Positions 28,451 to 47,994 of a stretch of 64,000 nucleotides of DNA are shown piece by piece; position 1 is the first letter of the stretch; every line of letters begins with the position of its first letter. The notes beneath the pieces are model-generated. The model worked only from the letters and a program-made list of their open reading frames with translations. It did not search any database and was not told the DNA's origin. Made by a program: the position numbers and the translations under genes. Source of the stretch: Peptococcia bacterium (GTDB lineage Bacteria; Bacillota; Peptococcia; Peptococcales; SKKY01); NCBI GenBank assembly GCA_965228015.1, contig OZ245787.1, positions 1,377,536-1,441,535 of the forward strand. The letters run 5' to 3'.

Positions 28451-28502
28451 AAAGAGACACCCTGAAGGTGTCTCTTTACAGTCCTATTTTCATTTACATT
28501 TA

Positions 28503-29831
28503 TTAACAACTCAAGTATATAGCGCATTCTACTCTTTTCTTCTGAAGTTCGCAACCTTTTTTGTACACTTTGTAAAAGTCGCCTGTATCGTGCCAGTTGC
28601 TGAAATGACAACCTCCGCTGCAATAAAATCTGGCCCAGCAATCCATACACTCTTCTTTATTCAATACATTTGCATCTTGAAACATTTTACCAATCTTTTT
28701 GGAAATGTCTCCTTGATAAACATTCCCAAGTAAAAAATCTTTGTTCCCCACAAACTGATGACAAGGATATATATCACCCTGCGGACTTATAGCTACATAC
28801 TCATGACCTGCACCACAAGCAGAAATTCTTTTTGGAAGGCATGGTCCTTTATATATGTCAATATTGAAGTGGAAGAAATTAAAGTCACTATTTTTTTCCA
28901 TATATTCTGTAAGCTTATCATACTCTTTAAGGATTAATGGTATATCTTCGTTTTTTATCGAATAAGAGGCTTCCTCTGGTCCCACAACCGGCTCAATAGA
29001 AAGATTTTTCAGACCCATTTCTTCAAGATGCTGCAAATCTTTTAAAAAGTCAGTATTTTCCCTGGTAAAAGTCCCTCGAACAATATAGCTCTTATATCCA
29101 TCGGCAATAAAGTTTTTAATATTATTTGAAACAACGTCATAAGAACCTTTATGATTTGCTGTATATCTCATTTTATTTTGCACTTCTGGTCTGCCGTCCA
29201 AGCTTAACACAACACTAATATTATGTTCTTTTAGAAAATCTCCCTTTTCTTTATCTAAAAGCAAAGCGTTCGTAGTTAAAGTCAATTCAGCAGCTTTTGC
29301 AAGTTCTTTTGTTCTTTTTTCAATATATAATATTAGCTCTTTAACAACCTGAAAATTCATTAGAGGTTCGCCACCAAAAAAATCAATATTAAAATTTTTT
29401 CGAGATCCAGACTCCTTAAACAGAAGTTCGACAGCTGCTTTTCCTGTTTCAAAGGACATCATTCCCCGGTCTCCTCCATATGGCCCCTGATCTGCAAAGC
29501 AATAAGGACAACGGAGATTACAATCGTGGGCAATATGAAGACACATAGCTTTAATAATTGGATTCTCAGGAGGAGTATATTCAGTTATTTCCCCTGGAGG
29601 AGAAAAGAGAACACCCTCTTCCGCCAACTCTTTAATTTCTTTTAAAACTTCTTTAGCCTCTTCAGAATCAGGAGTGTAACTTTCCCCTTGTTCTTTTAAA
29701 TTCTCAAGAATATTAAAAGTTAAATCATCAATAAGATGAATGCTGTCAGAATTAATATCCAGCAAAATATTTTTATCTTTATATTTGTAAAAATGGATTC
29801 TGGAAAAATCATATTTGTTCATCAAAAACAT
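28503..29831 (-). CDS. scfB: SCIFF radical SAM/SPASM maturase
   Basis: N-terminal RRE region, AMCLHIAHDCNLRCPYC, DFFGGEP and SPASM CGAG..YPCHQF..C..C...YCSGGC. Confidence 0.93.
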   Translation of the reverse strand: MFLMNKYDFSRIHFYKYKDKNILLDINSDSIHLIDDLTFNILENLKEQGESYTPDSEEAKEVLKEIKELAEEGVLFSPPGEITEYTPPENPIIKAMCLHIAHDCNLRCPYCFADQGPYGGDRGMMSFETGKAAVELLFKESGSRKNFNIDFFGGEPLMNFQVVKELILYIEKRTKELAKAAELTLTTNALLLDKEKGDFLKEHNISVVLSLDGRPEVQNKMRYTANHKGSYDVVSNNIKNFIADGYKSYIVRGTFTRENTDFLKDLQHLEEMGLKNLSIEPVVGPEEASYSIKNEDIPLILKEYDKLTEYMEKNSDFNFFHFNIDIYKGPCLPKRISACGAGHEYVAISPQGDIYPCHQFVGNKDFLLGNVYQGDISKKIGKMFQDANVLNKEECMDCWARFYCSGGCHFSNWHDTGDFYKVYKKGCELQKKRVECAIYLSC

Positions 29832-29894
29832 CCTTTACATAAATAAAAAAACAGATCCTTATATTTTATAAGGATCTGTTTTCAACTTTGTCTC

Positions 29895-30035
29895 TTAGTT
29901 TTTACAAGCCTGATTGCTTACTGTACATGAAGTCTTACAAGCCGATTGACAAGAAGTTGGACATTCCCCGCATCCACCTTTATGTATTGTACATTTTAAA
30001 TCTTTCTTTGTAATAGTTTTTATATGCTTTTTCAT
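29895..30035 (-). CDS. scfA: SCIFF ranthipeptide precursor, 46 aa (absent from the ORF track)
   Basis: MKKHIKTITKKDLKCTIHKGGCGECPTSCQSACKTSCTVSNQACKN with an AAGGAGG RBS, directly upstream of scfB. Confidence 0.95.
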   Translation of the reverse strand: MKKHIKTITKKDLKCTIHKGGCGECPTSCQSACKTSCTVSNQACKN

Positions 30036-30108
30036 ATAAATTCCTCCTTGATTAGTAAAAAAATTATAACAAAATAAATTATATAAAACAATATCTCTAA
30101 AAATAAAG

Positions 30109-31658
30109 ATCGTGTCAATTAATTATGGGTTTTAAAAGAATAAAAAAACTCCTTGTATGTATTACGTGCTAAATCGCACTCGCTATCCTTTTAAATAATT
30201 CTCTTTTCCAAGTTCTCTTACCAGTTAAAACTACTGGCACATTGCCGAATTTCTCATCTGATATTAGGTTCGTAGCTTTTTTATAACACGGCTTTCTAAT
30301 TTTATGATTCTTGTTTCTGTTTTTCTTGCTTCTTTCTTTTACTAAATCATATACATTACCTGAATTAGCCTTAAAAGCCCTCAGACGTGACATTTGATCA
30401 ACACCTTCTCTGCACCAGCTTAGAGGCCTTGAACTTAATCTTGCAGATAATATATGACTAATATGGCCTTCTGTGCTACAGCCTATATAATCCGGGTCAT
30501 ATTGATTCATTATACCTTCCCAATTATTTAACACATAACTTCTAGCATCTTTTATTGCTTCTATTTTTTGTTTCTGATTCTGTTTCTTCAATTATTGCTT
30601 TGAATAAATCTTTTACGAAATCTTTCCTTTTCGTATTTATGTAATACCACATCATTTGGTGTGTGCCTTTCATATGAGCAGTTGCCTTCTTTATATATTT
30701 CGACAAATAGTATCTATCTAAAACATAGATACTATCTTTAATCCATTCTTTGCCTTGTTTTATCCAGTTGGCTCCATCTCCTGATAAATATATCTTTTCA
30801 ATAGTTTCTTCTTCATAGTTGCTATCAATATAATCAGCTACTTCAAGCCATAAATCAGCACTATCTTGGTAGAGACCACTAAAGTATCTGGGATTTATTA
30901 ATTCATATCTATCTTTACTTACCTTTCACTTACCTTCGTGAACATAAATTAATCTAGGTTCGGCACATGTTCCTCTTTGAAGTGAAACATGATCTTCATC
31001 AACTTCGATGTACAAAATCTTAGCTTGAGAATCAGTTTTTTCACTGGTGCTGCATGATTAGAAATATCTTTAAGCTTTCTAATAGAATTCATTACTGTTT
31101 GACCAGTAAGATATACATTCTTCGATATTTTTTCGCTACTTTTTCTGTATGGTGTCTCTATTGCTTCTTCTATTAACATTGATTCTAGCAATATATCCAT
31201 TCTGTCATTTGCTTCAATACCAACAGCTTCATCAGATAAGTATTTATATTCACCGGTAATTTTATGAACATAATACGTTCTTTTATAGGTTACTTCACCA
31301 AATATCGTCGCCAAACTTTTCTTCGACTTTGTTTCCTTTATTTTCCAGTCTCTTTTTCTTGCACAATCTTTTTTAACTAAAATATCTACAGTTTCAAGTA
31401 CTTTTTCTGTAATTGCAACCCCAACTTCATCCAGCATTTTTTTGGTTTTTAAAATGAATTCAGATATATTATTTCCCTCAATTAAAGTTGTTTCCATATT
31501 TTCTGCTATTTCTTTACCGATTTTAGTTGCAATTTCATGTATAATATTATTCATTAGAGTTTCTCCTTTTTTGCGATTTGGTTTAGCGATTTAATTGTAA
31601 CATAAGGAGTTGCTCTAATATTTTTTTGTTTTTTTACCCATAATTATTTTACACTAAC
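30109..31658 (-). mobile_element. ISLre2-family IS, left copy
   Basis: IRs GTGTAAAATAATTATGGGT / GTGTCAATTAATTATGGGT. Near-identical inverted copy at 42834-44381. Confidence 0.88.
30169..31554 (-). pseudogene. ISLre2 transposase with two frameshifts
   Basis: YIEADEDHV, GDGANWIK, YHLSKY and EGHISH motifs in three frames, with breaks at two A6 runs. Confidence 0.85.
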
Positions 31659-31674
31659 AAAAATTTTTTATCAC

Positions 31675-31716
31675 TGTGGATAACTTTAATATTTATTAAC
31701 TGTTATCTGTTGATAA
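31675..31716 (+). promoter_or_regulatory. DnaA boxes upstream of dnaA, overlapping its promoter
   Basis: TGTGGATAA 31675-31683 (perfect) and TGTTGATAA 31708-31716. TTGATA-17-TAGTAT begins inside the second box. Confidence 0.8.
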
Positions 31717-31807
31717 ACTATTTTTATTTTGATAGTATAGCATTACAATTCTTAAGTTATAAACATTTTTAACAATAGGTTTATAATTATTCTCGGAGGT
31801 ATCTTTT

Positions 31808-33157
31808 ATGATAAAATCACAATTAAATGAAATATGGTCAGAAACCTTAAAAGTTATTCAAAATAAAATTAACAGGCCATCTTTTGATACCTGGTTTAAC
31901 CAAACAGAATTAGTTGCTTATTATGATGAAAATTTTATTATTAAAACCCCAAACAATATTGTAAAAGACTGGTTAAACAATAATTATATAGAGGTAATTA
32001 ATGAATCCTTTCAGGAAATTTTAAAAAGGAAGGTAATAACAAAATTTGTTGTCTCTAATGATCTTGAATTATTACCTATTGAAAATAATCAAACTGATAA
32101 TATCAGAAAAGAATCTATAGAAGAAAAAATAGCAAAATCAAATATTAATCCAAGGTATAATTTTGATAATTTTGTTGTTGGTAACAGTAATAAATTTACT
32201 CACGCAGCATGTATGTCTGTAGCAGAGTCTCTCTTTTTAAGATACAATCCATTATTTATTTACGGAGGCGTTGGCCTGGGTAAAACACATCTTATGCAGG
32301 CAATCGGAAATTATGTAATGATGAATTCAAATAAAAAGGTGCTTTATGTTTCTTCTGAAAAATTTACTAATGAATTAATTAATGGCATCCGGGATGATCG
32401 TACTGAAGCTTTTAGAAATAAATATAGAAATATTGACTTCTTATTAATTGATGATATTCAATTTTTAGCAAAAAAGGAAAGAACACAAGAAGAATTTTTC
32501 CATACTTTTAATGCTCTTTATGAAGCAAATAAACAAATTATTATTTCAAGTGATCGTCCTCCAAAAGAAATTCCAACACTAGAAGATCGTTTAAGAACAA
32601 GGTTTGAATGGGGTCTTATAACAGATATTCAATCACCTGATTATGAAACTAGAGTTGCGATTTTAAGAAAAAAAGCAAAAATGGAAAATTTTGACATACC
32701 AGATGAAATTATGTCATACATAGCCGAAAAAATTGATTCTAATATCAGAGAATTAGAAGGAGCTTTAATAAGAGTTATTGCTTACTCATCTTTAAGTGGA
32801 AAAAATATTGATTTAGAACTTGCAAAAAAAGCTTTAAAAGAAATCATCACAGATAAAAAACCAGTAATAATAACTCCGGATATAATTCAGGAAGTAGTAT
32901 CAGAAAATTTTAATATCCGAGTTGAAGATCTTAAATCTAAGAAAAGAAATAAAGATATAGTTTACCCAAGACAGATATCAATGTATTTATGCAGGACTCT
33001 TACTGATTTATCTCTTCCAAAAATTGGAGAGTATTTTGGTGGAAGGGATCATACTACAGTTATTCACTCATATGAAAAAATTAGTTCAGAAATAATAAAA
33101 AATCCATCCCTTTCAAATACAATAAATTCATTAACTGAAAAAATTAAAAAAGTATAA
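31808..33157 (+). CDS. dnaA: Chromosomal replication initiator DnaA
   Basis: YNPLFIYGGVGLGKTHL, LLIDDIQF, RLRTRFEWG and GGRDHTTVIH motifs. Confidence 0.99.
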   Translation: MIKSQLNEIWSETLKVIQNKINRPSFDTWFNQTELVAYYDENFIIKTPNNIVKDWLNNNYIEVINESFQEILKRKVITKFVVSNDLELLPIENNQTDNIRKESIEEKIAKSNINPRYNFDNFVVGNSNKFTHAACMSVAESLFLRYNPLFIYGGVGLGKTHLMQAIGNYVMMNSNKKVLYVSSEKFTNELINGIRDDRTEAFRNKYRNIDFLLIDDIQFLAKKERTQEEFFHTFNALYEANKQIIISSDRPPKEIPTLEDRLRTRFEWGLITDIQSPDYETRVAILRKKAKMENFDIPDEIMSYIAEKIDSNIRELEGALIRVIAYSSLSGKNIDLELAKKALKEIITDKKPVIITPDIIQEVVSENFNIRVEDLKSKKRNKDIVYPRQISMYLCRTLTDLSLPKIGEYFGGRDHTTVIHSYEKISSEIIKNPSLSNTINSLTEKIKKV

Positions 33158-33367
33158 TATTGTTAATAAACTTATAATAACTTGTTATTTAATTATGGAA
33201 AACTTTTAAAAATTTATTCTCCTGTTAATTTGTGGATAAACATAATTACTTTTCAACAGGATTTTTAACATCCATTTAACCATATAAAATATAAAGAATA
33301 TGGAGTTTTCAACATATCAACAATGCTTATTAATATTACTACTAAAAATCAATAAAAGGAGAAGACT
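33158..33367 (+). other. oriC (dnaA-dnaN intergenic region) with DnaA boxes and putative DnaA-trio unwinding element
   Basis: TGTGGATAA 33231-33239, TTTTCAACA 33250 and 33306, ATATCAACA 33314, then ATGC and TTATTAATATTACTACTA (33327-33344). Confidence 0.85.
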
Positions 33368-34465
33368 ATGAAAATTAAATGCTTAAAAGATAATTTAAGT
33401 TACGGATTACAAAATGTTCAAAAAGCAATATCAAATAAAAAGACTTTACCAATTTTGGATGGAATATTATTAAAAGCTGAAGGAAACTATTTAATTATCA
33501 CAGCAACAGATTTAGAATTAGCAATAGAAACAAAAATTCCAGCTAAAATAATTACACCAGGAGAAATAATTGTAACCTCAGGGAAATTTATTGAATTAGT
33601 AAAAAAAATTCCAAATATTTCAATAGAGTTAGAAAAAAACAATTTAAATTTAAATATTAAATATTTAAATTCTCAAGTTGAATTAAAAGGATTTAATACT
33701 AATGAATATCCAATGCTTCCAGAAATAAATGAAAACTTTAATTTTAAAATAAAAAGTAATAATTTAAATTCTTTAATCAAAAAAACACTCTTTGCCAGCT
33801 CACCAAATGAATCAAGACCAGTCTTTAATGGCTCTTTATTAAATATTTCTAATAATGAAATAAAATTTATTACAACAGATTCTTATAGATTAGCTATTAA
33901 TCATTTAAAAATAAATGATGATTATAATAATATAAATATAATAATTCCAAGAAAAACACTAAATGAAATACAAAAAATATTTAAAGATGATGATGAAATA
34001 ATTACTGTTTATGGAAATGATAAACAAATATGTTTCATAAATTCAGATACAAAAATTATTTCAAGATTAATTGATGGTAAATTTCCAAATTTTGAACAAG
34101 TGATACCAAGGTCATTTCAAACTTCATTTAAAGTAAATAAAAAAGAATTTTTAGAAACTATTGAAAGAGCAAGCTTATTTATAGATACTGTTGATAATTT
34201 ATCTATTGTAAAACTATTTATAACTAACTCTAATGTAAATATAACTTCTACTTCTGAAACAGGTTTTATAAATGAAAATATAAATACACATGTTGAAGGA
34301 GATAAATTAGAAATTAATTTTAATTCAAGATACTTAATAGAAGCATTAAAAATTATAGATACGGATGATATAGAATTTAAATTTTCTGGTAACCTAAGTC
34401 CTGTTATAATAAAGGAAACTAACGATAATTATACTTATCTTGTTCTGCCATTAAGAATAAGTTAA
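33368..34465 (+). CDS. dnaN: DNA polymerase III beta clamp
   Basis: TLPILDGILL, ATDLE, TDSYRLA, SRLIDGKFP and YLVLPLR motifs. Confidence 0.98.
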   Translation: MKIKCLKDNLSYGLQNVQKAISNKKTLPILDGILLKAEGNYLIITATDLELAIETKIPAKIITPGEIIVTSGKFIELVKKIPNISIELEKNNLNLNIKYLNSQVELKGFNTNEYPMLPEINENFNFKIKSNNLNSLIKKTLFASSPNESRPVFNGSLLNISNNEIKFITTDSYRLAINHLKINDDYNNINIIIPRKTLNEIQKIFKDDDEIITVYGNDKQICFINSDTKIISRLIDGKFPNFEQVIPRSFQTSFKVNKKEFLETIERASLFIDTVDNLSIVKLFITNSNVNITSTSETGFINENINTHVEGDKLEINFNSRYLIEALKIIDTDDIEFKFSGNLSPVIIKETNDNYTYLVLPLRIS

Positions 34466-34466
34466 A

Positions 34467-34500
34467 TTAAATGCCATTCTTTAAAAGGAATGGCATTTAA
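34467..34500. terminator. Hairpin between dnaN and recF
   Basis: TTAAATGCCATTCTTT-AAAAGGAATGGCATTTAA inverted repeat. Confidence 0.6.
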
Positions 34501-34548
34501 TTTTTGAAATAAAAAATATGATATAATCTAAATAAAAACTGGTGAATT

Positions 34549-35634
34549 ATGATAATTAATAAAATTAAAATAGAAAATTTTAGAAATTATAAAAAAGAAG
34601 AAATACTTTTTACTAATAAAATAAATTATATTTTGGGAAATAATGCTCAAGGTAAAACAAATTTATTAGAAAGTATTTTTTTTATTTTAAATAATGAATC
34701 GTTTAAAAGCATAAAAGAAGATGAATTATTTAATGAAAAAAGTAATTCGAAAAATTTAAATATTACATTAGAAATAAATAAAGAAGAAAAAAATTATTTA
34801 ATTGAATTAGAAAAAAATGAAAACAAAAAAATTTATAAAATAAATGGAGTAAAAAAAGATTTTAGAAATAAAATAATTAAAACAATAATTTTTATACCAG
34901 ATGATTTACAAATAGTAAAAGAAGGTCCTGGAAAAAGAAGAGATTTTTTAGATAATGAAATAAAAATTTTATTTCCAAATTATAAAAATTTAATTAAAAA
35001 TTATTATAAACTTCTATCTCAAAAGAACTATTTATTAAAAAACAAGAGGGATAAAAATTTAATTAAAACTTTTAATATTCAATTATCTAAAACCGGAAAA
35101 GAAATAATAAAATACAGGTTGTTTTTTTTAAAAAATATAATTCCAATAGCAAGAAAAATTTATAATTTAATTTCAGAAAAAAATGAAATATTATCTATAA
35201 ACTACAAACCAAGTTTTAATTTTAATTATTATCAACAAGAGTTAGATAATAATTTAGAAAATGAAATGTTAAAAAAACAATCTTTAATTGGAATTCACAG
35301 GGACGACATTGTTTTTTATATTAACGGTAAAAATACAAGATCCTTTGCCTCCCAAGGCCAGCAAAGATCTGTTATTTTATCTTTAAAAATAGCAGAGCTT
35401 GAATATTTAAAAAAATATTATAATTATTTTCCAATTTTATTACTTGATGATGTATTTAGTGAATTAGATGAAAAAAGAAAAAATATGCTAATGAAAATAT
35501 TAAAAGAAAATAATATTCAATCTTTTATTACTCTTGCTAATATTGAATTAATTAAAAATCAAATTAGTGAAAATGATAAAATTATAATAGTCAATAATGG
35601 AAAAATAGAAGAAAATATAATAATTGGAAAATAA
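34549..35634 (+). CDS. recF: DNA replication/repair protein RecF
   Basis: ENFRNY, GNNAQGKTNLLE, GPGKRRDFLD, GIHRDD, SQGQQRS and LLDDVFSELD motifs. Confidence 0.96.
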   Translation: MIINKIKIENFRNYKKEEILFTNKINYILGNNAQGKTNLLESIFFILNNESFKSIKEDELFNEKSNSKNLNITLEINKEEKNYLIELEKNENKKIYKINGVKKDFRNKIIKTIIFIPDDLQIVKEGPGKRRDFLDNEIKILFPNYKNLIKNYYKLLSQKNYLLKNKRDKNLIKTFNIQLSKTGKEIIKYRLFFLKNIIPIARKIYNLISEKNEILSINYKPSFNFNYYQQELDNNLENEMLKKQSLIGIHRDDIVFYINGKNTRSFASQGQQRSVILSLKIAELEYLKKYYNYFPILLLDDVFSELDEKRKNMLMKILKENNIQSFITLANIELIKNQISENDKIIIVNNGKIEENIIIGK

Positions 35635-35688
35635 AATTATATTTTGTTATAATTTTTATTTGGAAGATTATAAATTAAATTTAAATAA

Positions 35689-37617
<1,929 letters not shown>

Positions 37618-37636
37618 ATTGAAGGGAGATAATTAA

Positions 37637-40078
37637 GTGGAAAATTTTAACCATGGAAAAATGCTTCCAATAAGAATTGAAGATGAAATGAAAAATTCTT
37701 ATATTGATTATGCAATGAGCGTAATTGTTGGAAGAGCATTACCTGATATAAAAGATGGTTTAAAACCAGTGCATAGAAGAATTCTTTATTCAATGCATAA
37801 AATTGGTTTAACTCCGGAAAAGTCATTCAAAAAATCGGCCCATGTTGTTGGTGATGTTTTGGCAAAATACCATCCTCATGGTGATTCAGCAGTTTATGAT
37901 GCAATGGTAAGAATGGCCCAGGATTTCTCAACAAGACACCCTCTTATTAATGGCCAAGGAAACTTTGGTTCAGTTGATGGTGACTCAGCAGCAGCAATGA
38001 GATATACAGAAGTAAAAATGGCTAAAATAACTAATGAATTATTAGATGGAATAGAAAAAAATACAATTGATTATAACGAAAACTATGATGGTTCATTAGA
38101 AGAGCCTTCAGTATTACCATCAAGATATCCAAATCTTCTTGTCAACGGTTCTTCAGGGATTGCTGTTGGTATGGCGACTAATATTCCTCCTCATAATTTG
38201 AGGGAGGTTATAAATGGCGTTATAGCATATATTGAAAATCCTGATATTGAATTTGCAGAATTAAATAAAATAATTAAAGGACCAGATTTTCCAACAGGGG
38301 CAGTAATTCTTGGAAAAGAGGGAATAAAAAAAGCGTATGAAACTGGCCGTGGGGTTATAAAAATCAGGGCAAAAAGTGAAATTGAAGAATTAAAAAATGG
38401 GAAAAAGAGAATTATTGTAACTGAAATTCCATATATGGTTAATAAAGCAAGGTTAATTGAAAAAATAGCAGATTTAGTAAGAGATAAAAAAATAGATGGA
38501 ATAACTGATCTAAGGGATGAATCGGACCGTAAAGGTATAAGAATGGTAATTGAACTAAGGAAAAGTGTAAATGAGCAGGTTATTTTAAATCAGTTATATA
38601 AAAACACTCAATTACAAGATACTTTTGGAATTATTTTCCTTGCAATAGTAAATGGTGTTCCGAAAGTATTAAATTTAAAAGAAATATTAAAAGAATATAT
38701 TCTTCATCAGGAAAATATTATAAAAAGAAGAACCCAGTTTGATCTGGACAGAGCTGAAAAAAGAGCTCATATTGTAGAAGGATTAAGAATTGCAATTTCA
38801 AATATTGATGAAGTAATAAAAACCATCAAAAAAGCAAAAAATCCAGAAGAAGCCAGAATTAATCTTATGAGTAAGTTTTTATTAAGTGAAATTCAGGCTC
38901 AGGCAATTTTGGATATGAGATTACATCGTCTAACTTCTTTAGAAACTAAAAAACTGGAAGAAGAATATAAAGAACTTATAAAAACGATTAAAGAATTAAA
39001 AGGAATTCTTGGGGATGAAAATAAAATTCTTGAAATAATTAAAAAAGAGATTACTGAAATTAGAGACAAGTATTCTGATCCAAGAAGAACAATGATTGGA
39101 ATGTCTGATGAAAATATTGATATGGAAGATTTAATTCCTGAAGAAGAGGTTGTAATTACCATATCAAATAGTGGATATATAAAAAGAATGAATATCAGCA
39201 ACTACTCCAGCCAGAAAAGAGGGGGAAAGGGTATTCGTGGAATGAGTACAAAAGATGAAGATGCAGTTATAAAAATATTTACTTCATCAACACATCACTA
39301 CATCCTTTTCTTTACAAATAAAGGAAAAATTTATCGTATTAAGGGTTATGAAGTTCCGGAGCATTCCAGAATAGCTAAAGGAATGCATATGAAAAATTTA
39401 ATAAACCTGGATCCCGGAGAGAAAGTAACAACGGTAATACCAATAAAAGAATTTACTGATGGTTATTATATGATTGCTGCTACTAAACAGGGCATGATAA
39501 AGAAAACAGATCTGATAAGTTATAATACCCAAAGAAAAGATGGAATAGCTGCTATTACATTAAATGATGGGGATGAACTTGTTGGTATTGAATTAACAGA
39601 CGGGACAAAAAATGTAGTTATGGTTACAAAACTTGGTTTAGCCATCAGATTTAAAGAAAGTGATGTACGTGCAATGGGAAGAACAGCTAAGGGTGTAAAA
39701 GGTATTTCCGTTGGCAAAGGAGATGAAGTTGTTTCTGTTGGAATAGCTGAAGATGATTCTTCATTACTTGTTGTTTCAAATAAAGGATATGGCAAAAGAA
39801 CTCCCCTTGAACAATATAAAGTTCAGGCAAGAGGAGGAAAAGGGTTTATTTCTTTTAACAGAAACAAGAAAAAAGATGTAGAAATAGTCGGAGCAGAAAT
39901 TCTTAATAATGATGATGAAGTAATGATGATTTCTAAAAATGGAATAATTATCAGATTTGCAGCCCAGGACATCTCTTCAATGGGAAGGGCAACTAAAGGT
40001 GTTCGTTTAATGAATATGGGAAGTGATGATGAGGTTGTTTCAATTACAGTAATAAAAAATACAGAGGATGAACAATAA
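37637..40078 (+). CDS. gyrA: DNA gyrase subunit A
   Basis: [25 protein letters not shown] and the GyrA box QKRGGKG in the C-terminal domain. Confidence 0.99.
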
Positions 40079-40133
40079 AATCTTTCTTGATATAAAATAG
40101 TTATTATTGTAATATATTTGAAATAGAATATTA

Positions 40134-40357
40134 AAAAGTAATGATCAGGAAGTTTTAAATTTCTTTGTTGCAGAGAGCTGATGGAAGGTGAAAATCAGTA
40201 CAAGTATTTAAAATTCCGCCTGTAAACTGAGCATGATGAATATTTCCGTTGGTTACGTTATAACCGTCAAGTGGAATAGCGACAATGTTGTTATTTAATT
40301 TGGGTGGCAACGCGGGTAGACAGAACCCGTCCCATATTTTGGGACGGGTTTTTTTAT
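40134..40357 (+). ncRNA. Serine-specific T-box riboswitch with terminator
   Basis: AGAGAG/GGTGAAA stem I motifs, TCC (Ser) specifier at 40215-40217, T-box AATTTGGGTGGCAACGCGG (UGGC pairs with G73 of tRNA-Ser) and terminator AACCCGTCCC..GGGACGGGTT-T tract. Confidence 0.9.
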
Positions 40358-40389
40358 TTATTTAAAAATTATAGGGAGTGTGGTAAATC

Positions 40390-41547
40390 TTGAAAACAGA
40401 AAAATTATTAATGATACCGGGTCCAACAATGATTCCTGAAAAAATACTTAATGCAATAAATACCCAGGCTGTTGGGCATAGAACAGAATATTTTGAAAAT
40501 ATTATAAAAAATGTAACCATTAAACTTAAGAAAATATTCAGAACAAATAGAGATGTATATATTTTGACTTCTTCCGGAAGTGGAGCGATGGAAGCTTCTG
40601 TAGCAAACTTTATTAATGAAGGAGATAAAACCTTAGTATTAGTAAACGGGAAATTCGGAGAGAGATTTGTAAGCTTGAATAAAATTTATAGAGCAGAAGT
40701 TAGTGAAATAACTTATCCTTTAGGAGTTTCTGCAAATCCGGAAGATGTAGAAAAATTTCTTAAAAATAATCCAGACACTAAAGCAGTCTTTATGCAACAA
40801 AATGAGACATCCTCAGCGATACTCAATGGTGTTTTTGCAATTGCGGAGTTAGTAAAAAAATATGAAGCTTTATTAATTGTTGATTCAGTTTCAGGTTTAG
40901 GTGTTACAGAGATGAAAATGGATGAATGGGGAGTTGATGTAATTGCTGCAGGGTCTCAAAAAGCATTTATGTTGCCACCGGGATTAGCTTTCGTAGCTGT
41001 AAGTGAAAAAGCAGAGAAGAAATTGGTCTCTTGTGGTAACAAAAAGTATTATTTTTGCCTAAAAGCAGCAAAGGAAAACTTGGAAAAATCGACGACCCCA
41101 TACACTCCAGCAACTTCTTTAATTAAAGGTTTAGATGCTAGTTTAGATATGATATTAGAGTATGGAATAGAAAAAAACTATGAAAAACAAGAAAAATATA
41201 CAAAAATGCTGAGAGATGCTTTTAAAGCAATTGGTTTATCTATGGTTGTAGAAAATGAAAAGGCCGCTTCTCGTGCTGTTACAGGAGTGTATGTTCCGGA
41301 AGAAGTAAAGTGGTCTGAATTTGAGAAAATTCTTAGTGAGAAATACAATGTATTAGTTGCCGGAGGCCAGGACGAACTTAAAGGAAAAATATTCAGAGTT
41401 GGGACGATTGGCTACTTAGGAGATCTTGATATCTTATCTGGAATAGCTGCAATTGAAATGGCGCTTTATGAAGCGGGATATAAATTTGAGGTGGGCAAAG
41501 GTGTAAGTACAGCTCAAAAAATACTAATAGAGAGAGGTAGAGATTAA
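40390..41547 (+). CDS. Class V PLP aminotransferase (serine-pyruvate / SerC-like)
   Basis: [38 protein letters not shown] and TPYTP motifs. Under the Ser T-box. Confidence 0.88.
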
Positions 41548-42803
41548 TGTTGGATTTAAAATTTATTAGAGAAAATTCTGAAATAGTAGAAAAAGCTTTA
41601 GAAAAAAGAGGGGCAAAAGTTGATATAAAAAGAGTGTTGGAACTTGATGAGAGCAGAAGAAAATTATTAACTGAAGCAGAGGAAAAGAAGAATTTACGTA
41701 ACACCATTTCAAAAGAAATCGGTTTATTAAAAAAAGAAGGCAAAGATGCGTCGGAAGTAATGAATAAAGTTGGCGATCTTGGAGATAATATAAAAGAACT
41801 AGATATTAAGATAAGAGAAGTAGATGGAGAGTTAGGAGACATTTTGCTTCTTATTCCAAATATTCCTCACGAAAGTGTTCCTGTCGGATTAAAGGAAGAA
41901 GATTTCCGGCTTGAAAAAACTGTAGGAGAACCAAAAAAATATGGTTTTGAAGTTAAGGCCCACTGGGACTTGGGAGAAGACTTAAACATCCTTGATTTTG
42001 AAAGAGCAACAAAAGTAACAGGCGCAAGGTTTACTTTTTATAGAGGGATGGCAGCACGTTTGGAGAGAGCGTTAGTCAGTCTTATGCTTAATACACATTC
42101 AAATGGAGATTACATTGAATTATTGCCTCCTTTTATGGTAAATTCTGCAAGTATGACAGGAACAGGGCAGTTGCCAAAATTTGCTGAGGATATGTTTAAG
42201 CTTGAAAATACAGACTATTATCTTGTTCCAACAGCGGAGGTACCAGTTACAAACTATTACAGAGATGAAATTTTAGATGAAAAAGAACTTCCAATTTCTT
42301 ATTGTGCATATACTCCCTGTTTTAGAGCAGAAGCTGGTTCATATGGAAGAGATACAAGAGGAATAATAAGACAACATCAATTTAACAAAGTTGAACTTGT
42401 AAAATTTGCACATCCCGATGATTCTTATGAGCAGTTAGAAAAGCTTACTAAAAGCGCAGAATCTATTCTTGAAATCCTTGAACTTCCTTACAGAAGAATT
42501 GCACTTTCAACAGGGGATTTAGGGTTTTCATCAGCGAAAACATATGATCTTGAAGTATGGTTACCAAGTTTTGAAGGATACAGAGAGATTTCTTCCTGTA
42601 GTAATTTTGAGGATTTCCAGGCTAGAAGAGTTAACATCAGGTTCAGAGGTGCTGATGGTAAAGTAAGATTTGTTCACACTTTAAATGGTTCTGGATTAGC
42701 CGTTGGAAGAACAACAGCAGCAATAATGGAGAATTACCAAAATGAAGACGGAAGTATTACTGTACCGAAAGCATTAATTCACTATATGGGTGGAGTAGAA
42801 TAA
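41547..42803 (+). CDS. serS: Seryl-tRNA synthetase
   Basis: [36 protein letters not shown] and [13 protein letters not shown] motifs. Confidence 0.99.
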
Positions 42804-42833
42804 ATTACAAAATAAATTACAAAAAATATTGCA

Positions 42834-44381
42834 GTTAGTGTAAAATAATTATGGGTAAAAAAACAAAAAAATATTAGAGCAACTCCTTATGTTACAATTA
42901 AATCGCTAAACCAAATCGCAAAAAAGGAGAAACTCTAATGAATAATATTATACATGAAATTGCAACTAAAATCAGTAAAGAAATAGCAGAAAATATGGAA
43001 ACAACTTTAATTGAGGGAAATAATATATCTGAATTCATTTTAAAAACCAAAAAAATGCTGGATGAAGTTGGGGTTGCAATTACAGAAAAAGTACTTGAAA
43101 CTGTAGATATTTTAGTTAAAAAAGATTGTGCAAGAAAAAGAGACTGGAAAATAAAGGAAACAAAGTCGAAGAAAAGTTTGGCGACGATATTTGGTGAAGT
43201 AACCTATAAAAGAACGTATTATGTTCATAAAATTACCGGTGAATATAAATACTTATCTGATGAAGCTGTTGGTATTGAAGCAAATGACAGAATGGATATA
43301 TTGCTAGAATCAATGTTAATAGAAGAAGCAATAGAGACACCATACAGAAAAAGTAGCGAAAAAATATCGAAGAATGTATATCTTACTAGTCAAACAGTAA
43401 TGAATTCTATTAGAAAGCTTAAAGATATTTCTAATCATGCAGCACCAGTGAAAAAACTGATTCTCAAGCTAAGATTTTGTACATCGAAGCTGATGAAGAT
43501 CATGTTTCACTTCAAAGAGGAACATGTGCCGAACCTAGATTAATTTATGTTCACGAAGGTAAGTGAAAGGTAAGTAAAGATAGATATGAATTAATAAATC
43601 CCAGATACTTTAGTGGTCTCTACCGAGATAGTGCTGATTTATGGCTTGAAGTAGCTGATTATATTGATAGCAACTATGAAGAAGAAACTATTGAAAAGAT
43701 ATATTTATCAGGAGATGGAGCCAACTGGATAAAACAAGGCAAAGAATGGATTAAAGATAGTATCTATGTTTTAGATATATATCATTTGTCGAAATATATA
43801 AAGAAGGCAACTGCTCATATGAAAGGCACACACCAAATGATGTGGTATTACATAAATACGAAAAGGAAAGATTTCGTAAAAGATTTATTCAAAGCAATAA
43901 TTGAAGAAACAGAATCAGAAACAAAAAATAGAAGCAATAAAAGATGCTAGAAGTTATGTGTTAAACAATTGGGAAGGTATAATGAATCAATATGACCCGG
44001 ATTATATAGGTTGTAGCACAGAAGGCCATATTAGTCATATATTATCTGCAAGATTAAGTTCAAGGCCTCTAAGCTGGTGCAGAGAAGGTGTTGATCAAAT
44101 GTCACGTCTGAGGGCTTTTAAGGCTAATTCAGGTAATGTATATGATTTAGTAAAAGAAAGAAGCAAGAAAAACAGAAACAAGAATCATAAAATTAGAAAG
44201 CTGTGTTATAAAAAAGCTACGAACCTAATATCAGATGAGAAATTCGGCAATGTGCCAGTAGTTTTAACTGGTAAGAGAACTTGGAAAAGAGAATTGTTTA
44301 AAAGGATAGCGAGTGCGATTTAGCACGTAATACATACAAGGGGTTTTTATTCTTTTAAAACCCATAATTAATTGACACGAT
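42834..44381 (+). mobile_element. ISLre2-family IS, right copy (inverted relative to 30109-31658)
   Basis: Same ends, near-identical sequence with a few substitutions, and no duplicated flanks. Confidence 0.88.
42938..44323 (+). pseudogene. ISLre2 transposase with the same two frameshifts
   Basis: Frames 42938-43543, a middle frame and 43901-44323. A6 breaks near 43452 and 43923. Confidence 0.85.
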
Positions 44382-44397
44382 TAATTTTTATAATATC

Positions 44398-44426
44398 TTG
44401 ATAATTAACTAAGATTAGTATATAAT
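44398..44426 (+). promoter_or_regulatory. Sigma-A promoter of the rpmH operon
   Basis: TTGATA-17 nt-TATAAT. Confidence 0.75.
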
Positions 44427-44494
44427 TTCATGGTCAATGAGAATGATAAAGATTTATATTATATAAGATGGTTTTAATGGAGGTGTAGTTAAAA

Positions 44495-44629
44495 ATGAAA
44501 AGAACATATCAGCCAAGTAAAAGAAAAAGAAAAAGAGTTCATGGCTTTAGAGCTAGAATGGCAACTGTTGGTGGAAGAAATGTATTAAAAAGAAGAAGAG
44601 CAAAAGGAAGAAAAGTTTTATCTGCATAA
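44495..44629 (+). CDS. rpmH: 50S ribosomal protein L34 (absent from the ORF track)
   Basis: [44 protein letters not shown] with a GGAGG RBS. Confidence 0.99.
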
Positions 44630-44668
44630 GTTAGTTTTTTAAGTCCTTTTTAAACAGAGGGACTTATT

Positions 44669-45022
44669 TTGGAGTTGAAAGCTTTGCTTAAATCAGAGAA
44701 CCGGTTAAGGAAAAACAAAGAATTTAAAATTACTTATAAAAAAGGAAAGTCTTTTGCGAACAGAGATTTTGTAGTTTATTATAAGAAGAATTTTTTAGGA
44801 TTTTCCAGGATTGGTTTTTCTGTATCTAAGAAGGTTGGTAAAGCTTGGAAAAGAAATGAAATAAAAAGAAGATTAAGAGAAATATTAAGGAAAAATGACT
44901 CCTTATTATCAAAAAGTTATAATATTATCATAATTGTAAGACAAACGATAAAAGATACAGATTATTTTTTCGTTGAAAAATCTCTTAATCATGCTTTAAA
45001 GGGATCTGAGCTAATTGATTAA
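44669..45022 (+). CDS. rnpA: Ribonuclease P protein component
   Basis: [25 protein letters not shown] (RNR motif), in the expected position. Confidence 0.96.
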
Positions 45023-45224
45023 AAATATTTTAATTATTCTTATCAGAGGATATCAAAAGTTTCTTTCTCCTTTACTTGGAAAGAATTGCAGGTTTTGTCC
45101 AACTTGTTCTCAGTATGCAATAACTGCTTTACAAAAATATGGTTTACTTAAAGGAAGTTTTTTAGCAGTCAAAAGAATTTTAAAATGTAATCCTTTTCAC
45201 CCCGGGGGATATGATCCTGTTTAA
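45015..45224 (+). CDS. yidD: Membrane protein insertion efficiency factor YidD
   Basis: [11 protein letters not shown] and [16 protein letters not shown] motifs. Confidence 0.95.
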
Positions 45225-45280
45225 TAATTTGTATTAAAATAAATATCGGGAGGTGGAGCCTGTTTTAAACAGGTGTTAAT

Positions 45281-45937
45281 TTGAGTATTTTAAATGATTT
45301 TGTTGTATCTTTAATTACATATTTTTATACGATTTCAGTAAAGATTGGTTTACCAAGTTATGCATTAGCAATTATAATTTTGACTATTTTAATAAAAATA
45401 GCATTATTCCCTTTGAGTGTTAAGCAAATGAAGTCTATGAAAAATATGCAAAGTATACAGCCAGAGGTTCAAAAACTTCAGAAAAAGCATAAAAATGATA
45501 AAGAAAAATTAAACAAAGCTACTATGGAGTTATATCAAAAATACAATGTAAATCCGGCAGCAGGATGTTTGCCTTTATTGGTTCAAATGCCTATTTTATT
45601 TGCATTATTTAATTCGTTGAGAGCATATCCTTTTGAACCAGCTGAACATGCAACTTTTTTTTGGATAAATAATTTAACTAATCCGGATCCATTATATATT
45701 CTTCCTATATTAGTAGGTATTGCAACTTTTTTCCAAAGTAAATTAACTGCTGCTAGTTCAGGACCAGCAGGGCAAAATAAAATGTTATTATATTTTCTAC
45801 CTGTAATGATTGGTTATATAAGTTTACAATTCCCAGCAGGTCTATGTTTATATTGGGTTGTTTTTAACGCGATGGGCGTACTTCAGCAATATATAATTAA
45901 TCGTCTTCCTGACTCGAATAAGGAGGCAATAGAATGA
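45281..45937 (+). CDS. yidC: Membrane protein insertase YidC/SpoIIIJ
   Basis: GCLPLLVQMPIL and PAGLCLYW motifs, in the expected position. Confidence 0.96.
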   Translation: MSILNDFVVSLITYFYTISVKIGLPSYALAIIILTILIKIALFPLSVKQMKSMKNMQSIQPEVQKLQKKHKNDKEKLNKATMELYQKYNVNPAAGCLPLLVQMPILFALFNSLRAYPFEPAEHATFFWINNLTNPDPLYILPILVGIATFFQSKLTAASSGPAGQNKMLLYFLPVMIGYISLQFPAGLCLYWVVFNAMGVLQQYIINRLPDSNKEAIE

Positions 45938-46560
45938 GAGTAATTGAAAAATCAGGAAAAACAATTGATGAAGCAGTTAAAGCAGCTTTATCCGAATTAA
46001 ATTTAAAAGAAAATGATGTTGATATTGAAATATTAGAAGAACCAAAAAATGGTTTTTTAGGTTTTATTGGTGGCAAAGATGCTTTAGTTAGAGTTACTAA
46101 AAAAGAAAGTAATTTAAACAAGATAAATGAATTTTTACAGGTTCTTTTTGATAAAATGAGATTGAACCCTGAGATCTCGATAAAAGAAAAAGAGGGTAAT
46201 ATTTTAGTCAACCTTCAAGGAGAAGACTTAGGAATATTAATTGGCAGAAGAGGAGAGGCTTTAGATTCTTTGCAGTTTCTGGTAAATCTGTTTGTCAACA
46301 AGTCTAGTGAAAATTATAAAAAAGTAATTATTGATATAGAGGATTATAGAAAAAAGAGAGAAAATACATTATACAGCCTGGCAGAAAAATTATCCAATAA
46401 AGTTAAAAGAACAGGCAGAAAGATTTCTTTAGAACCAATGAGTCCTCAAGAAAGAAAAATTATTCATATGGCGTTACAGGAGAATAAAAGTGTAAACACC
46501 TATAGTGAAGGTGAAGAACCTTTTAGAAAAGTAGTAATAGCTCCTAAACGAAATTACTAA
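45934..46560 (+). CDS. jag: RNA-binding protein Jag/EloR/KhpB
   Basis: Jag_N, KH (GILIGRRGEALDSLQ) and R3H (ERKIIH) domains. Confidence 0.95.
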   Translation: MRVIEKSGKTIDEAVKAALSELNLKENDVDIEILEEPKNGFLGFIGGKDALVRVTKKESNLNKINEFLQVLFDKMRLNPEISIKEKEGNILVNLQGEDLGILIGRRGEALDSLQFLVNLFVNKSSENYKKVIIDIEDYRKKRENTLYSLAEKLSNKVKRTGRKISLEPMSPQERKIIHMALQENKSVNTYSEGEEPFRKVVIAPKRNY

Positions 46561-46611
46561 AATTTTGCCAGTAATCTTTTGATTACTGGCTTTTTTGCAA
46601 GGAGGAAAGAT

Positions 46612-47994
46612 ATGAAATTTACAGATACTATATGTTCAATAATAACAGGCATTGGCCCTGCGGCAGTTTCTATTATTCGTTTGAGCGGCGATGATTCAAT
46701 TGAAATTGCTGGAAAATTGTGGGGAGGAAGAAAAAACCTAAAATCTATTGAAAGTCACAGGGCTGTTTTGGGAAATATTATTGATAACTTTACAGGTCGG
46801 CTTATAGATGAAGGATTGTTTATTATAATGAAGGGGCCAAAATCTTATACTGGTGAGGATGTTGTTGAAATACAGTCACATGGCAGCTTCATTGGAATTA
46901 ATTATATTCTGGAACTGCTTATAAAGAATGGAGCAAGACATGCAGAACCTGGAGAATTTACTAAGAGAGCTTTTTTGAATGGAAAGCTGGATCTAACAAA
47001 AGCAGAAGGAATTATAGATTTAATAGAAGCTAAAAATAAACAGGGATTACAATTTGCTTCAAGAACTTTATCCGGGAAAAATTTTTCTGAAATAAATTCT
47101 TTAGTATCTAATATTGTAGAGTTGCTTGCATATCTTGAGGCAAGTATTGATTTCCCTGAGGATGATGTTCCGACTCTTTCAAAAGAAAATAAAATTGAAA
47201 AGATTACAAATATTAAGGAAAATATTGAAATATTATTACAAAGAAGTGAGAAAATTAAATATATTAATGAAGGAATCAGGATTTTAATACTAGGGGAACC
47301 AAATGTAGGAAAATCCAGCTTTTTAAATCTTTTGTTAAATGAAGAACGAGCTATTGTTTCTGATATACCAGGAACAACAAGAGACACTATAGAAGAATAT
47401 CTTACAATTGGGAAGATTCCGGCTAAAATAATTGATACTGCAGGGATAAGGAAAAGTGAAGATGTAATAGAAAAAATTGGTATTGAAAAGGCAAAAGAGG
47501 GAATAGAGAAAGCAGATCTAATTATTTATATGATAGATGTATCAAATAAATATATTTTTGAAGATGATGATATATTTGATTTAATTAAAAATAAGAATAA
47601 AATAATACTATTAAACAAAATTGATACAATAAACGATGTTAAAGACATTATGGATATTAAGAGGTATTTCCCAGAAGAAAAAGCCTTAAACTTTTCTACG
47701 GTAAAAAAAAAATATCTTGAACTCCTTGAGAAGGAAATTGAAAATATTTTCATTGATTCAGATTATGATTTTAATGAAGGCGCTTTTATAACTAATGTCA
47801 GACAAAAAAGTCTTTTGGAAAAAGCACTAATATATATCAATCAAGGGTTACTTTCTGTAAGCAAGGATATGGAGGATGACTTTATTACAATTGATTTATA
47901 TGATGCAAAAGCAACTTTAGAAGAAATAATTGGAAATAATATTAATGAAGATATTATGCATGAAATTTTTAGTAAATTTTGTATAGGAAAGTAG
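46612..47994 (+). CDS. mnmE: tRNA modification GTPase MnmE
   Basis: [39 protein letters not shown] and FCIGK motifs. Confidence 0.98.

What the first reader, a model, noticed from the sequence alone, without database searches (positions are those of the whole stretch)
30109..44381. The replication origin block appears flipped between two inverted ISLre2 copies
Established: Firmicute rpmH and dnaA are adjacent and divergent. Seen: dnaA..serS (+) is bounded by inverted near-identical 1.55-kb IS copies, and rpmH follows serS in the same direction. Reversing the block restores rpmH/dnaA divergence and puts serS in line with scfA and the left-arm genes. Neither IS has matching flanks as assembled, but the reconstructed dnaA/rpmH junction gives AAATTTTT versus TAATTTTT (7/8). 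Because oriC is inside, every gene stays on the leading strand and oriC moves only about 8 kb, so the flip could be near-neutral and reversible by homologous recombination. It also splits the dnaA-rpmH regulatory region. Misassembly across the repeats is a real alternative.
Basis: partly seen in the sequence, partly recalled or inferred. Interest (0 to 1): 0.75.

Follow-up and report, generated by a model that had tools for sequence, protein, structure and literature searches.

The report
IS-bounded origin block, two nested inversions
Two inverted copies of a dead insertion sequence bracket the replication-origin genes of an uncultured Clostridia bacterium; relatives show that the origin region was reshuffled by two overlapping inversions, not one simple flip, which is a well-known kind of rearrangement.

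Summary
Two inverted ISLre2-family copies (30109-31658, minus strand; 42834-44381, plus strand) differ by 12 substitutions and one TT indel. They bracket dnaA-dnaN-recF-gyrB-gyrA-aminotransferase-serS, and rpmH follows in the same direction.

Same-species contigs (98% nt) and sister species have the canonical rpmH<>dnaA spacer with no IS. The two halves of that spacer now sit at the inner end of the left IS and the outer end of the right IS. Each carries AAAAATT, which is single-copy in the empty site. The dnaA/rpmH split at an IS is therefore real.

The proposed single flip is incomplete. In relatives serS is followed by tRNA-Ser/Arg and tadA. scfA lies about 19-22 kb beyond rpmH, after dnaB and tRNA-Phe. 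The window is therefore two inversions from the ancestor: about 33 kb (rpmH..tRNA-Phe plus dnaA..serS) and 11 kb (dnaA..serS). The origin block keeps its ancestral polarity relative to scfA. The rpmH-parAB-ssb-dnaB segment has changed replichore.

Un-flipping the block gives an order only one inversion from the ancestor, so a minority isomer or a wrong assembly path cannot be excluded from sequence alone. The mechanism is ordinary: recombination between inverted IS copies. Interest is low to moderate.

The parts
30109..31658 (-). Left ISLre2-family IS copy (1550 nt). Its IRR end faces scfA and its IRL end faces dnaA. The transposase is a pseudogene.
   Evidence: Lesions relative to intact homologues L051 and L030: a 1-nt deletion, an AAA>TGA stop and a 1-nt insertion, all shared with the right copy. 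The conceptually repaired protein scores 316.6 bits on NF033529 (cut-off 200).
42834..44381 (+). Right ISLre2-family IS copy (1548 nt). Its IRL end faces serS and its IRR end faces rpmH. It carries the same three transposase lesions (about 43453, 43564-43566, about 43925).
31659..31665 (+). Target-site duplication copy 1, AAAAATT (the 8th base is T), next to the IRL of the left IS.
   Evidence: The empty sites are L001 ATTATAAAAATTTTTTATTCC and L025 ATTATAAAAAATTTTTATCGC.
44383..44389 (-). Target-site duplication copy 2. It reads AAAAATT on the minus strand (the 8th base is A rather than T), next to the IRR of the right IS.
31659..42833 (+). Block B: dnaA upstream region, dnaA, dnaN, recF, gyrB, gyrA, aminotransferase and serS. 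It is collinear with relatives over its whole length.
   Evidence: families. L001, 85.6% nt over 11.2 kb. L025, 98.3% nt, window 31659-42834 = L025 9850-21030.
31675..31716 (-). DnaA boxes upstream of dnaA: TTATCCACA at 31675-31683 and TTATCAACA at 31708-31716. They begin 16 nt from the IS end, and none remains on the rpmH side.
33231..33239 (-). Perfect DnaA box in the AT-rich dnaA-dnaN spacer.
44382..64000 (+). Segment S (continues beyond the window): rpmH promoter, rpmH, rnpA, yidD, yidC, jag, mnmE, mnmG, rsmG, noc, parA, parB, M23, bactofilin, CvpA, ssb, DUF2232, rplI, dnaB, FAD-dependent protein. It is inverted relative to its ancestral position between dnaA and scfA.
   Evidence: window 44385-54236 = L025 9854-1, 98.1%; collinear with L013..
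20766..30108 (-). Segment F': scfA, scfB, LysM/M23 peptidase, two FAD oxidoreductases, trxB, MBL hydrolase. In relatives it lies directly after tRNA-Phe at the end of segment S.
   Evidence: L010 65-9415 = window 30107-20766, 98.0%..

Best explanation
The structure is a chromosomal rearrangement scar, not a device. After the lineage split from its about 98%-identical relatives, an ISLre2-family element, now a shared pseudogene, came to occupy three sites near oriC: the rpmH-dnaA spacer, the serS 3' end, and the tRNA-Phe/scfA spacer.

Exchange between inverted copies then produced two overlapping inversions, in either order. The exchange was most likely RecA-dependent homologous recombination. 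Alternatively it was intramolecular replicative transposition driven in trans. One inversion covers about 33 kb (rpmH...dnaB...tRNA-Phe plus dnaA...serS). The other covers the 11.2-kb dnaA...serS block.

The ancestral order was scfA-cluster(-) | tRNA-Phe...dnaB...parB...rpmH(-) | dnaA...serS(+) | tRNA-Ser, tadA(+). The window shows scfA-cluster(-) | IS | dnaA...serS(+) | IS | rpmH...parB...dnaB(+).

Both inversions contain oriC, so every gene keeps leading-strand orientation and GC skew stays smooth. This explains why the rearrangement is tolerated. The net effect is that the oriC/dnaA block now abuts scfA, and the roughly 22-kb rpmH-to-dnaB segment has moved to the other replichore.

Shown: the IS pair, the split spacer with its duplication, and the three broken ancestral adjacencies. 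Inferred: the order of events, the recombination mechanism, and a third IS-bearing junction (tRNA-Phe | IS | tRNA-Ser-tadA) about 2.5-3 kb beyond the window's right end.
For: - IS pair and gene content.
- Empty site and 7-bp duplication: L001, L003 and L025 have one uninterrupted rpmH-dnaA spacer. Window 31659 onward and the reverse complement of 44383 onward both start at L001 3997-4003 and L025 9850-9854.
- serS is followed by tRNA-Ser, Ser, Arg, Arg and tadA in L001, L002, L003 and L025. The window has no tRNA.
- tRNA-Phe and its terminator lie directly upstream of scfA in the same-species contig L010 (98% nt) and in L011 and L012. The homology with L010 stops at window 30107, 2 nt from the IS end (30109).
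- One 78.6-kb contig (L016 and L013, ERZ4239849 NODE_246) carries serS...dnaA | rpmH...parB...ssb...rplI-dnaB...FemAB-tRNA-Lys/Glu/Phe-scfA-scfB-M23-FAD-trxB-MBL in one line. A second assembly (L062) repeats the dnaB...tRNA...scfA part.
- Signed-block arithmetic gives (F', B, -S) versus (F', S, B). That is three breakpoints, so a minimum of two reversals (own reasoning from the above).
- The skew minimum is at 31-33 kb and the DnaA boxes lie only inside the block.
- The window comes from a 1.9-Mb contig. The two IS copies are resolved, with 12 interspersed copy-specific substitutions. This argues for long-read resolution of a 1.55-kb repeat.
Against: - The third junction lies outside the window and was not seen.
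- The S-to-scfA linkage upstream of tRNA-Phe is shown only in a sister species (DnaA 86%). Same-species contigs end inside the tRNA.
- The un-flipped isomer needs one event fewer. Parsimony therefore slightly favours an order different from the assembled one.
- No read-level evidence is available. The only independent contig touching a junction (L009) is a fold-back chimera that reaches just 294 nt into the IS.
- Both IS copies share the same inactivating lesions, so a transposition-based mechanism would need a helper copy that was not observed.
Confidence: 0.68

Rival explanations
1. The 11-kb flip is an assembly artefact or a minority isomer. The true or dominant chromosome would be scfA(-) | IS | serS...dnaA(-) | IS | rpmH(+). 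That is one 33-kb IS-mediated inversion plus a plain IS insertion in the rpmH-dnaA spacer, flanked by its own duplication.
For: - This order is one reversal from the ancestral order, against two for the assembled order (own reasoning).
- It places AAAAATT(T) directly on both sides of a single IS, as a simple insertion would.
- The flank/IS-end junctions are identical in both isomers, so no k-mer-level evidence distinguishes them.
- Repeat-driven misassemblies of this type are documented, for example Bifidobacterium longum NCC2705 (PMC1285363).
- Several 1-nt shortfalls in A7/T7 runs relative to L025 hint at imperfect long-read consensus.
Against: - The source contig is 1.9 Mb, which implies reads long enough to span a 1.55-kb repeat.
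- The two copies carry 12 copy-specific substitutions spread over the element and were not collapsed.
- L009 attaches the left-copy alleles to the scfA flank at 100% identity, but it does not cross the IS.
Confidence: 0.17
2. One reading: one 11-kb flip between two pre-existing IS copies is the only change, and reversing it restores the ancestral chromosome.
For: Reversal does rebuild the rpmH-IS-dnaA junction with its duplication. It also leaves all genes co-oriented with replication.
Against: Reversal leaves serS joined to scfA through an IS. No relative has that adjacency. L001, L002, L003 and L025 have serS followed by tRNA-Ser...tadA. L010-L013 and L062 have tRNA-Phe followed by scfA. The second flank pair shows no duplication.
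Confidence: 0.03
3. The order and history are the same, but the 11-kb flip arose in one step. A copy sitting at the scfA/serS junction underwent intramolecular replicative transposition into the rpmH-dnaA spacer. That single event created the second copy, the inversion and the inverted 'duplication' together.
For: The predicted product is identical to what is seen. The duplicated heptamer lies at the inner flank of one copy and the outer flank of the other, and the donor flanks do not match. Only one prior IS copy is needed.
Against: - Both copies share a stop codon and two frameshifts relative to intact homologues, so a helper transposase would be required.
- The transposition chemistry of the ISLre2 family is not established (my own knowledge).
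- 0.8% divergence with derived alleles on both copies fits either route.
Confidence: 0.2
4. The IS-bracketed oriC/dnaA cassette is an actively flipping, RecA-driven bistable segment. On this reading the population holds both orientations, and the flip changes the upstream context of dnaA, rpmH and scfA.
For: The inverted repeats are 1.55 kb long, 99.2% identical and only 11.2 kb apart. Both orientations preserve leading-strand bias. The IRR ends carry an outward TTGACA that forms promoter-like hybrids toward rpmH and scfA.
Against: - Twelve substitutions with derived alleles interspersed on both copies show no recent gene conversion or homogenisation. That argues against frequent exchange.
- There is no site-specific recombinase in or next to the block.
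- The core promoters of dnaA and rpmH and all DnaA boxes stay with their genes in both states.
Confidence: 0.08

Closest known systems
IS-mediated chromosomal inversions across the replication axis. Examples: IS1548/IS1239 in Streptococcus pyogenes (PMC11602124); IS481 in Bordetella pertussis and IS905 in Lactococcus lactis (from my own knowledge).
   Same: Inverted IS copies lie at both breakpoints. The inverted segment includes the origin, so gene-strand bias and GC skew are preserved. The duplicated target sequences are exchanged between copies. The event occurred within a species-level clade.
   Different: The inversions here are tiny and highly asymmetric (11 kb and about 33 kb), not hundreds of kb. 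Two are nested. One breakpoint sits inside the rpmH-dnaA spacer, 16 nt from a DnaA box, so the near-universal Firmicute rpmH<>dnaA pair is separated.
Intramolecular replicative transposition giving inversion plus IS duplication (the textbook behaviour of IS1, IS903 and the Tn3/IS26 types; from my own knowledge).
   Same: The product geometry is the same: two inverted copies, with the target duplication split between the inner flank of one copy and the outer flank of the other.
   Different: The transposase is a pseudogene in both copies. The mechanism has not been demonstrated for the ISLre2 family.
Composite transposon (Tn10/Tn5 architecture: IS-cargo-IS, with the IS copies inverted).
   Same: Inverted IS copies bracket an 11-kb cargo, with like ends (IRR) facing outward.
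   Different: The outer flanks share no duplication. Instead they map to two different ancestral loci. The cargo is the native origin region, collinear with relatives. The structure did not insert as a unit.
Repeat-induced misassembly of origin-proximal segments, as in Bifidobacterium longum NCC2705 (PMC1285363).
   Same: Pairs of long homologous sequences allow an alternative configuration, and comparison with relatives is the diagnostic.
   Different: In that case the wrong configuration broke the skew and gene-orientation curves. Here both configurations give perfect skew, so genometrics cannot decide.

Membership tests
ISLre2 family insertion sequence | DDE transposase matching the family model over its full length | tested here: met
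   The ORF fragments alone score 66.8 and 81 bits, below the cut-off of 200. The conceptual translation joined across the three lesions scores 316.6 bits over profile positions 1-382 of 382. The intact homologue on L051 scores 324.5 bits.
ISLre2 family insertion sequence | Terminal inverted repeats and a short target-site duplication | tested here: met
   The IRL is GTTAGTGTAAAATAATTATGGGT. The reverse complement of the IRR is ATCGTGTCAATTAATTATGGGT. Both ends are shared with L051 and L030. The duplication AAAAATT (7 bp, or 8 bp with one mismatch) is inferred from the empty sites. I did not check the family's usual duplication length against ISfinder.
ISLre2 family insertion sequence | Autonomy (an intact transposase gene) | tested here: not met
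   Both copies have a 1-nt deletion near 43453, a TGA in place of AAA at 43564-43566, and a 1-nt insertion near 43925, relative to L051 and L030. The two indels lie in A-runs and could be consensus errors. The stop needs two substitutions.
IS-mediated inversion by exchange between inverted copies | Homologous inverted repeats exactly at both synteny breakpoints relative to an outgroup | tested here: met
   Collinearity with L025 and L001 ends at 31659 and 42834, and restarts in reverse at 44383-44385. Collinearity with L010 ends at 30107.
IS-mediated inversion by exchange between inverted copies | Target duplications redistributed: inner flank of one copy matches outer flank of the other | tested here: met
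   Met for the rpmH-dnaA pair. The second pair is not expected to match under the two-inversion history, and it does not.
IS-mediated inversion by exchange between inverted copies | Physical confirmation by molecules that span a whole repeat | not testable with these tools
   No reads are available. Exact-protein look-ups of the window's DnaA, SerS and the 468-aa protein found no other record.
Composite transposon | Direct target duplication at the two outer flanks, and cargo foreign to the site | tested here: not met
   The outer flanks are CTTTATTT and TAATTTTT and are unrelated. The cargo is collinear with relatives' native origin region.
Site-specific invertible switch (inverton) | A dedicated serine or tyrosine recombinase with short inverted recombination sites | tested here: not met
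   All ORFs in and beside the block are housekeeping genes or the IS transposase. The repeats are full-length IS copies.

The most novel reading that the evidence does not exclude
The oriC/dnaA cassette bracketed by inverted IS copies behaves as a reversible, RecA-driven flip-flop within the natural population. The chromosome would then exist as two isomers, one with dnaA facing rpmH through an IS and one with dnaA facing scfA. The isomers would differ in origin position (8-11 kb) and in the read-in that the IS ends give to dnaA, rpmH and scfA. This would be a structural polymorphism of the origin itself.
Probability: 0.1. Interest if true: 0.55.

Novelty: new member of a known kind. Interest (0 to 1): 0.3.

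Why it matters
It is a clean, base-pair-resolved example of how IS expansion can dismantle one of the most conserved gene neighbourhoods in Firmicutes (rpmH<>dnaA) without cost. Every step keeps oriC inside the inverted segment, so gene-strand bias and skew are preserved.

It is also a practical warning. Skew-based checks cannot tell the two isomers apart. Origin-anchored genome start conventions and synteny-based MAG quality control can therefore be misled at such sites. It does not reveal a new mechanism.

Tried and rejected
- Exact-sequence look-ups of the window's DnaA, SerS and the last right-arm protein, to find other assemblies of the same strain: nothing on record.
- Metagenome scan for the exact IRR end: 0 hits.
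- Degenerate IR pattern: 33 loci. Only L030 and L051 were true homologues (79% nt). None came from this species, so no third copy or alternative junction was found.
- L009 looked like independent support, but it is a fold-back chimera that enters the IS by only 294 nt.
- The contig ends 178 nt upstream of dnaA in L022 and L024 were checked for a polymorphic IS. They are plain contig ends within a normal spacer.
- GC skew and gene orientation cannot discriminate the isomers, because oriC is inside the block.
- Composite-transposon insertion was rejected on the flank evidence.
- Polarising the 12 inter-copy differences with outgroups, to look for a crossover mosaic, gave an interspersed pattern with no block structure.
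- The apparent similarity between the scfA promoter region and the tRNA-Ser promoter region of L001 was judged to be AT-rich promoter resemblance, not homology.

Full report
**1. What is in the window**

A self-comparison finds one long inverted repeat in the region, 1526 nt at 99%. Gapped alignment of the two copies with their flanks sets the element at 30109-31658 (minus orientation) and 42834-44381 (plus orientation). The copies differ at 12 substitution sites and by one TT indel near the IRR end.

The termini are imperfect inverted repeats: GTTAGTGTAAAATAATTATGGGT and ATCGTGTCAATTAATTATGGGT. The IRL ends face the enclosed block and the IRR ends face outward.

The reading frame is broken in both copies in the same three places. 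Two homologues from metagenomes (L051, L030; 79% nt) have an uninterrupted gene. Against them, the window copies have:
- a 1-nt deletion near 43453;
- TGA in place of an AAA codon at 43564-43566;
- a 1-nt insertion near 43925.

The translation joined across these lesions matches the ISLre2 transposase model end to end, at 316.6 bits against a cut-off of 200. The family assignment holds. The element is a shared pseudogene. One caveat applies: the two indels lie in A-runs and could be consensus errors, but the stop cannot.

NCBIfam assigns the enclosed genes, all on the plus strand, to dnaA, dnaN, recF, gyrB, gyrA, a class-V aminotransferase and serS. To the right, also plus, lie rpmH, rnpA, yidD, yidC, jag, mnmE, mnmG, rsmG, noc and parA. 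They continue through parB, an M23 peptidase, bactofilin, CvpA, ssb, DUF2232, rplI and dnaB. To the left, on the minus strand, lie the SCIFF peptide gene scfA, its maturase scfB, a LysM/M23 peptidase, two FAD oxidoreductases, trxB and an MBL hydrolase.

The cumulative GC skew has its minimum at 31-33 kb. Perfect DnaA boxes lie at 31675 and 33231, with a one-mismatch box at 31708. None lies on the rpmH side of the IS.

**2. The dnaA/rpmH split is real and has a base-pair signature**

A scan of one genome per species with GyrA returned relatives at 95, 91, 85 and 80% identity. Cluster members and homologues of DnaA led to same-species contigs. L025, from a JGI metagenome, is 98.2% identical in nucleotides over 21 kb.

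In L001, L003, L016, L019, L020, L021, L023, L025, L026 and L027, rpmH and dnaA are adjacent and divergent, with a spacer of about 255 nt and no IS.

Window 31659-42834 aligns to L025 9850-21030. Window 44385-54236 aligns in reverse to L025 9854-1. The same holds for L001 (3997 and 4003).

- Empty sites: ATTATAAAAATTTTTTATTCC (L001) and ATTATAAAAAATTTTTATCGC (L025).
- Window, dnaA side: IS-CTAAC|AAAAATTTTTTATCAC.
- Window, rpmH side (reverse complement): ATTATAAAAATTA|ATCGTGTC-IS.

One heptamer, AAAAATT, is single-copy in relatives. In the window it sits at the inner flank of the left copy and at the outer flank of the right copy.

The insertion point lies 16 nt from the first DnaA box and 16 nt from the -35 of the rpmH promoter-like site, TTGATA-17-TATAAT at 44398-44426. 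The two divergent promoters were separated, but neither was destroyed. All DnaA boxes stayed with dnaA.

**3. The other two flanks were never neighbours**

In L001, L002, L003 and L025, serS is followed within about 60 nt by a promoter, then tRNA-Ser(TGA), tRNA-Ser(GCT), tRNA-Arg(ACG), tRNA-Arg(CCT) and tadA. The window follows L025 up to ...ATATTGCAG and then enters the IS. It contains no tRNA gene at all and none of the downstream proteins.

On the other side, homologues of ScfB led to L010, which is 98.0% nt identical over 9.35 kb, and to L011, L012 and L015. In L010-L012 the sequence immediately upstream of the scfA promoter is the 3' end of tRNA-Phe and its terminator hairpin. The window's homology to L010 stops at 30107, 2 nt from the IS end (30109), within the terminator's T-run.

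The flank pair serS-3' and scfA-5' shows no duplication.

**4. The ancestral order**

In a sister species (DnaA 86%, ScfB 76%), a single 78.6-kb contig, seen through L016 and L013, carries the following in one line:

serS...gyrA-gyrB-recF-dnaN-dnaA | rpmH-rnpA-yidC-jag-mnmE-mnmG-rsmG-noc-parA-parB-M23-bactofilin-CvpA-DUF951-rpsF-ssb-rpsR-DUF2232-rplI-dnaB-FAD protein-407 aa-FemAB-tRNA-Lys/Glu/Phe-scfA-scfB-M23-FAD-trxB-MBL.

A second assembly (L062) repeats the CvpA...dnaB...FemAB...scfA...MBL part. The window's right arm (plus strand) and the reverse complement of its left arm are therefore consecutive and co-directional in relatives. The distance from rpmH to scfA is about 19 kb there, and by extrapolation about 22 kb here.

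I write the blocks as follows:
- F' = scfA cluster
- S = tRNA-Phe...rpmH
- B = dnaA...serS
- D = tRNA-Ser...tadA

The ancestor is F' S B D. The window is F' B -S, presumably followed by D. That is three broken adjacencies, so the minimum is two reversals: one of S+B (about 33 kb) and one of B (11.2 kb), in either order.

Reversing it yields F' -B -S. That order restores rpmH-IS-dnaA but still differs from the ancestor by the 33-kb inversion.

Relative to the scfA cluster, the dnaA block has its ancestral polarity. The rpmH-to-dnaB segment is what has been turned and carried to the other replichore. Each inversion contains oriC, so strand bias and skew are preserved. This fits the smooth profile.

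**5. Mechanism**

The geometry fits homologous recombination between inverted IS copies. It fits equally well a one-step intramolecular replicative transposition from a copy at the scfA/serS junction into the rpmH-dnaA spacer. Both give the same sequence.

I favour recombination, because both copies carry the same inactivating lesions.

The 12 differences (0.8%) have derived alleles interspersed on both copies when polarised with L051 and L030. The copies have therefore coexisted without homogenisation. That argues against frequent flip-flopping, though not against rare reversal.

No copy of this IS occurs in any relative's origin locus fetched here. The events therefore post-date the roughly 2% divergence from L025 and L010.

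**6. Is the assembled orientation right?**

Flank/IS-end junctions are the same in both isomers, so only molecules spanning a whole IS can decide. None was accessible.

In favour of the assembly:
- The window comes from a 1.9-Mb contig.
- The copies were resolved with copy-specific alleles.
- L009 ties left-copy alleles to the scfA flank, although that contig is chimeric.

Against the assembly:
- The alternative isomer needs one event fewer.
- A few 1-nt shortfalls in A7/T7 runs relative to L025 suggest an imperfect consensus.

I put the artefact or minority-isomer alternative at about 0.17.

**7. Comparison with what is known**

IS-mediated inversions across the replication axis are common, for example in S. 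pyogenes (PMC11602124). Repeat-driven misassembly near origins is also documented (PMC1285363).

This case is a small, nested, asymmetric instance that separates rpmH from dnaA. It is not a composite-transposon insertion, because the outer flanks are unrelated and the cargo is native. It is not a site-specific inverton, because no recombinase is present.

I rate it a new member of a known kind, with interest 0.3.

Noticed in passing
window 2986-4377 and 19327-20717: A second inverted IS pair, of the ISL3 family at 98-99% identity, brackets 15 kb that encodes a two-component system, a GGDEF regulator, ApbE, an FMN-binding protein and hpf. The left copy's transposase is split (3052-3618 and 3563-4285). 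The right copy is intact (410 aa). Synteny with the same-species contig L010 stops at 20766, 49 nt from this IS, so it marks another rearrangement breakpoint.
   Followed up: partly
window 1871-2782: An IS3-type transposase fragment (HTH_Tnp_1, HTH_21, truncated rve) lies about 200 nt from the ISL3 copy (2986). With it, the window holds five IS copies or fragments in 64 kb, which suggests an IS-expanded genome.
   Followed up: no
window 50685-51500 (noc): noc is cut to 130 aa. Relative to L025 there are two separate 1-nt shortfalls in A7 runs (51024 and 51266). This is either a real pseudogene of the nucleoid-occlusion protein or homopolymer consensus error.
   Followed up: partly
window 33368-35634; also L001 and L003: dnaN (21% GC) and recF (17% GC) are far below the 33% window average. 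The same is true in relatives, so it is a lineage feature of the origin-proximal genes, not a local anomaly.
   Followed up: partly
window 44372-44399 and 30090-30118: The IRR end of the ISLre2 element carries an outward-facing TTGACA. It forms promoter-like hybrids with the flanks (TTGACA-16-TATCTT toward rpmH; TTGACA-17-GATATT toward scfA). Both scans found about as many promoter-like sites as shuffled controls, so this is only a lead.
   Followed up: no
window 20797-21330: The GNAT acetyltransferase gene that follows the MBL hydrolase in relatives has a +1 and a -9 indel relative to L010, and no ORF of 100 aa or more. It is a probable pseudogene next to the ISL3 copy.
   Followed up: no
L009 (ENA ERZ25074352 ctg15053_7x_l), 1-5514: This public contig from what appears to be the same strain is a fold-back chimera. 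It holds two inverted copies of the scfA-scfB region joined inside the IS and inside the M23 gene. It should not be used as structural evidence.
   Followed up: yes
L002 4357-5652: In the relative with GyrA at 91% identity, a 431-aa ORF that looks like a transposase (my reading of its sequence; no family search was run) sits between gyrA and the aminotransferase gene. It has no counterpart in the window, L001 or L003, so origin-proximal mobile-element insertions may recur in this clade.
   Followed up: no
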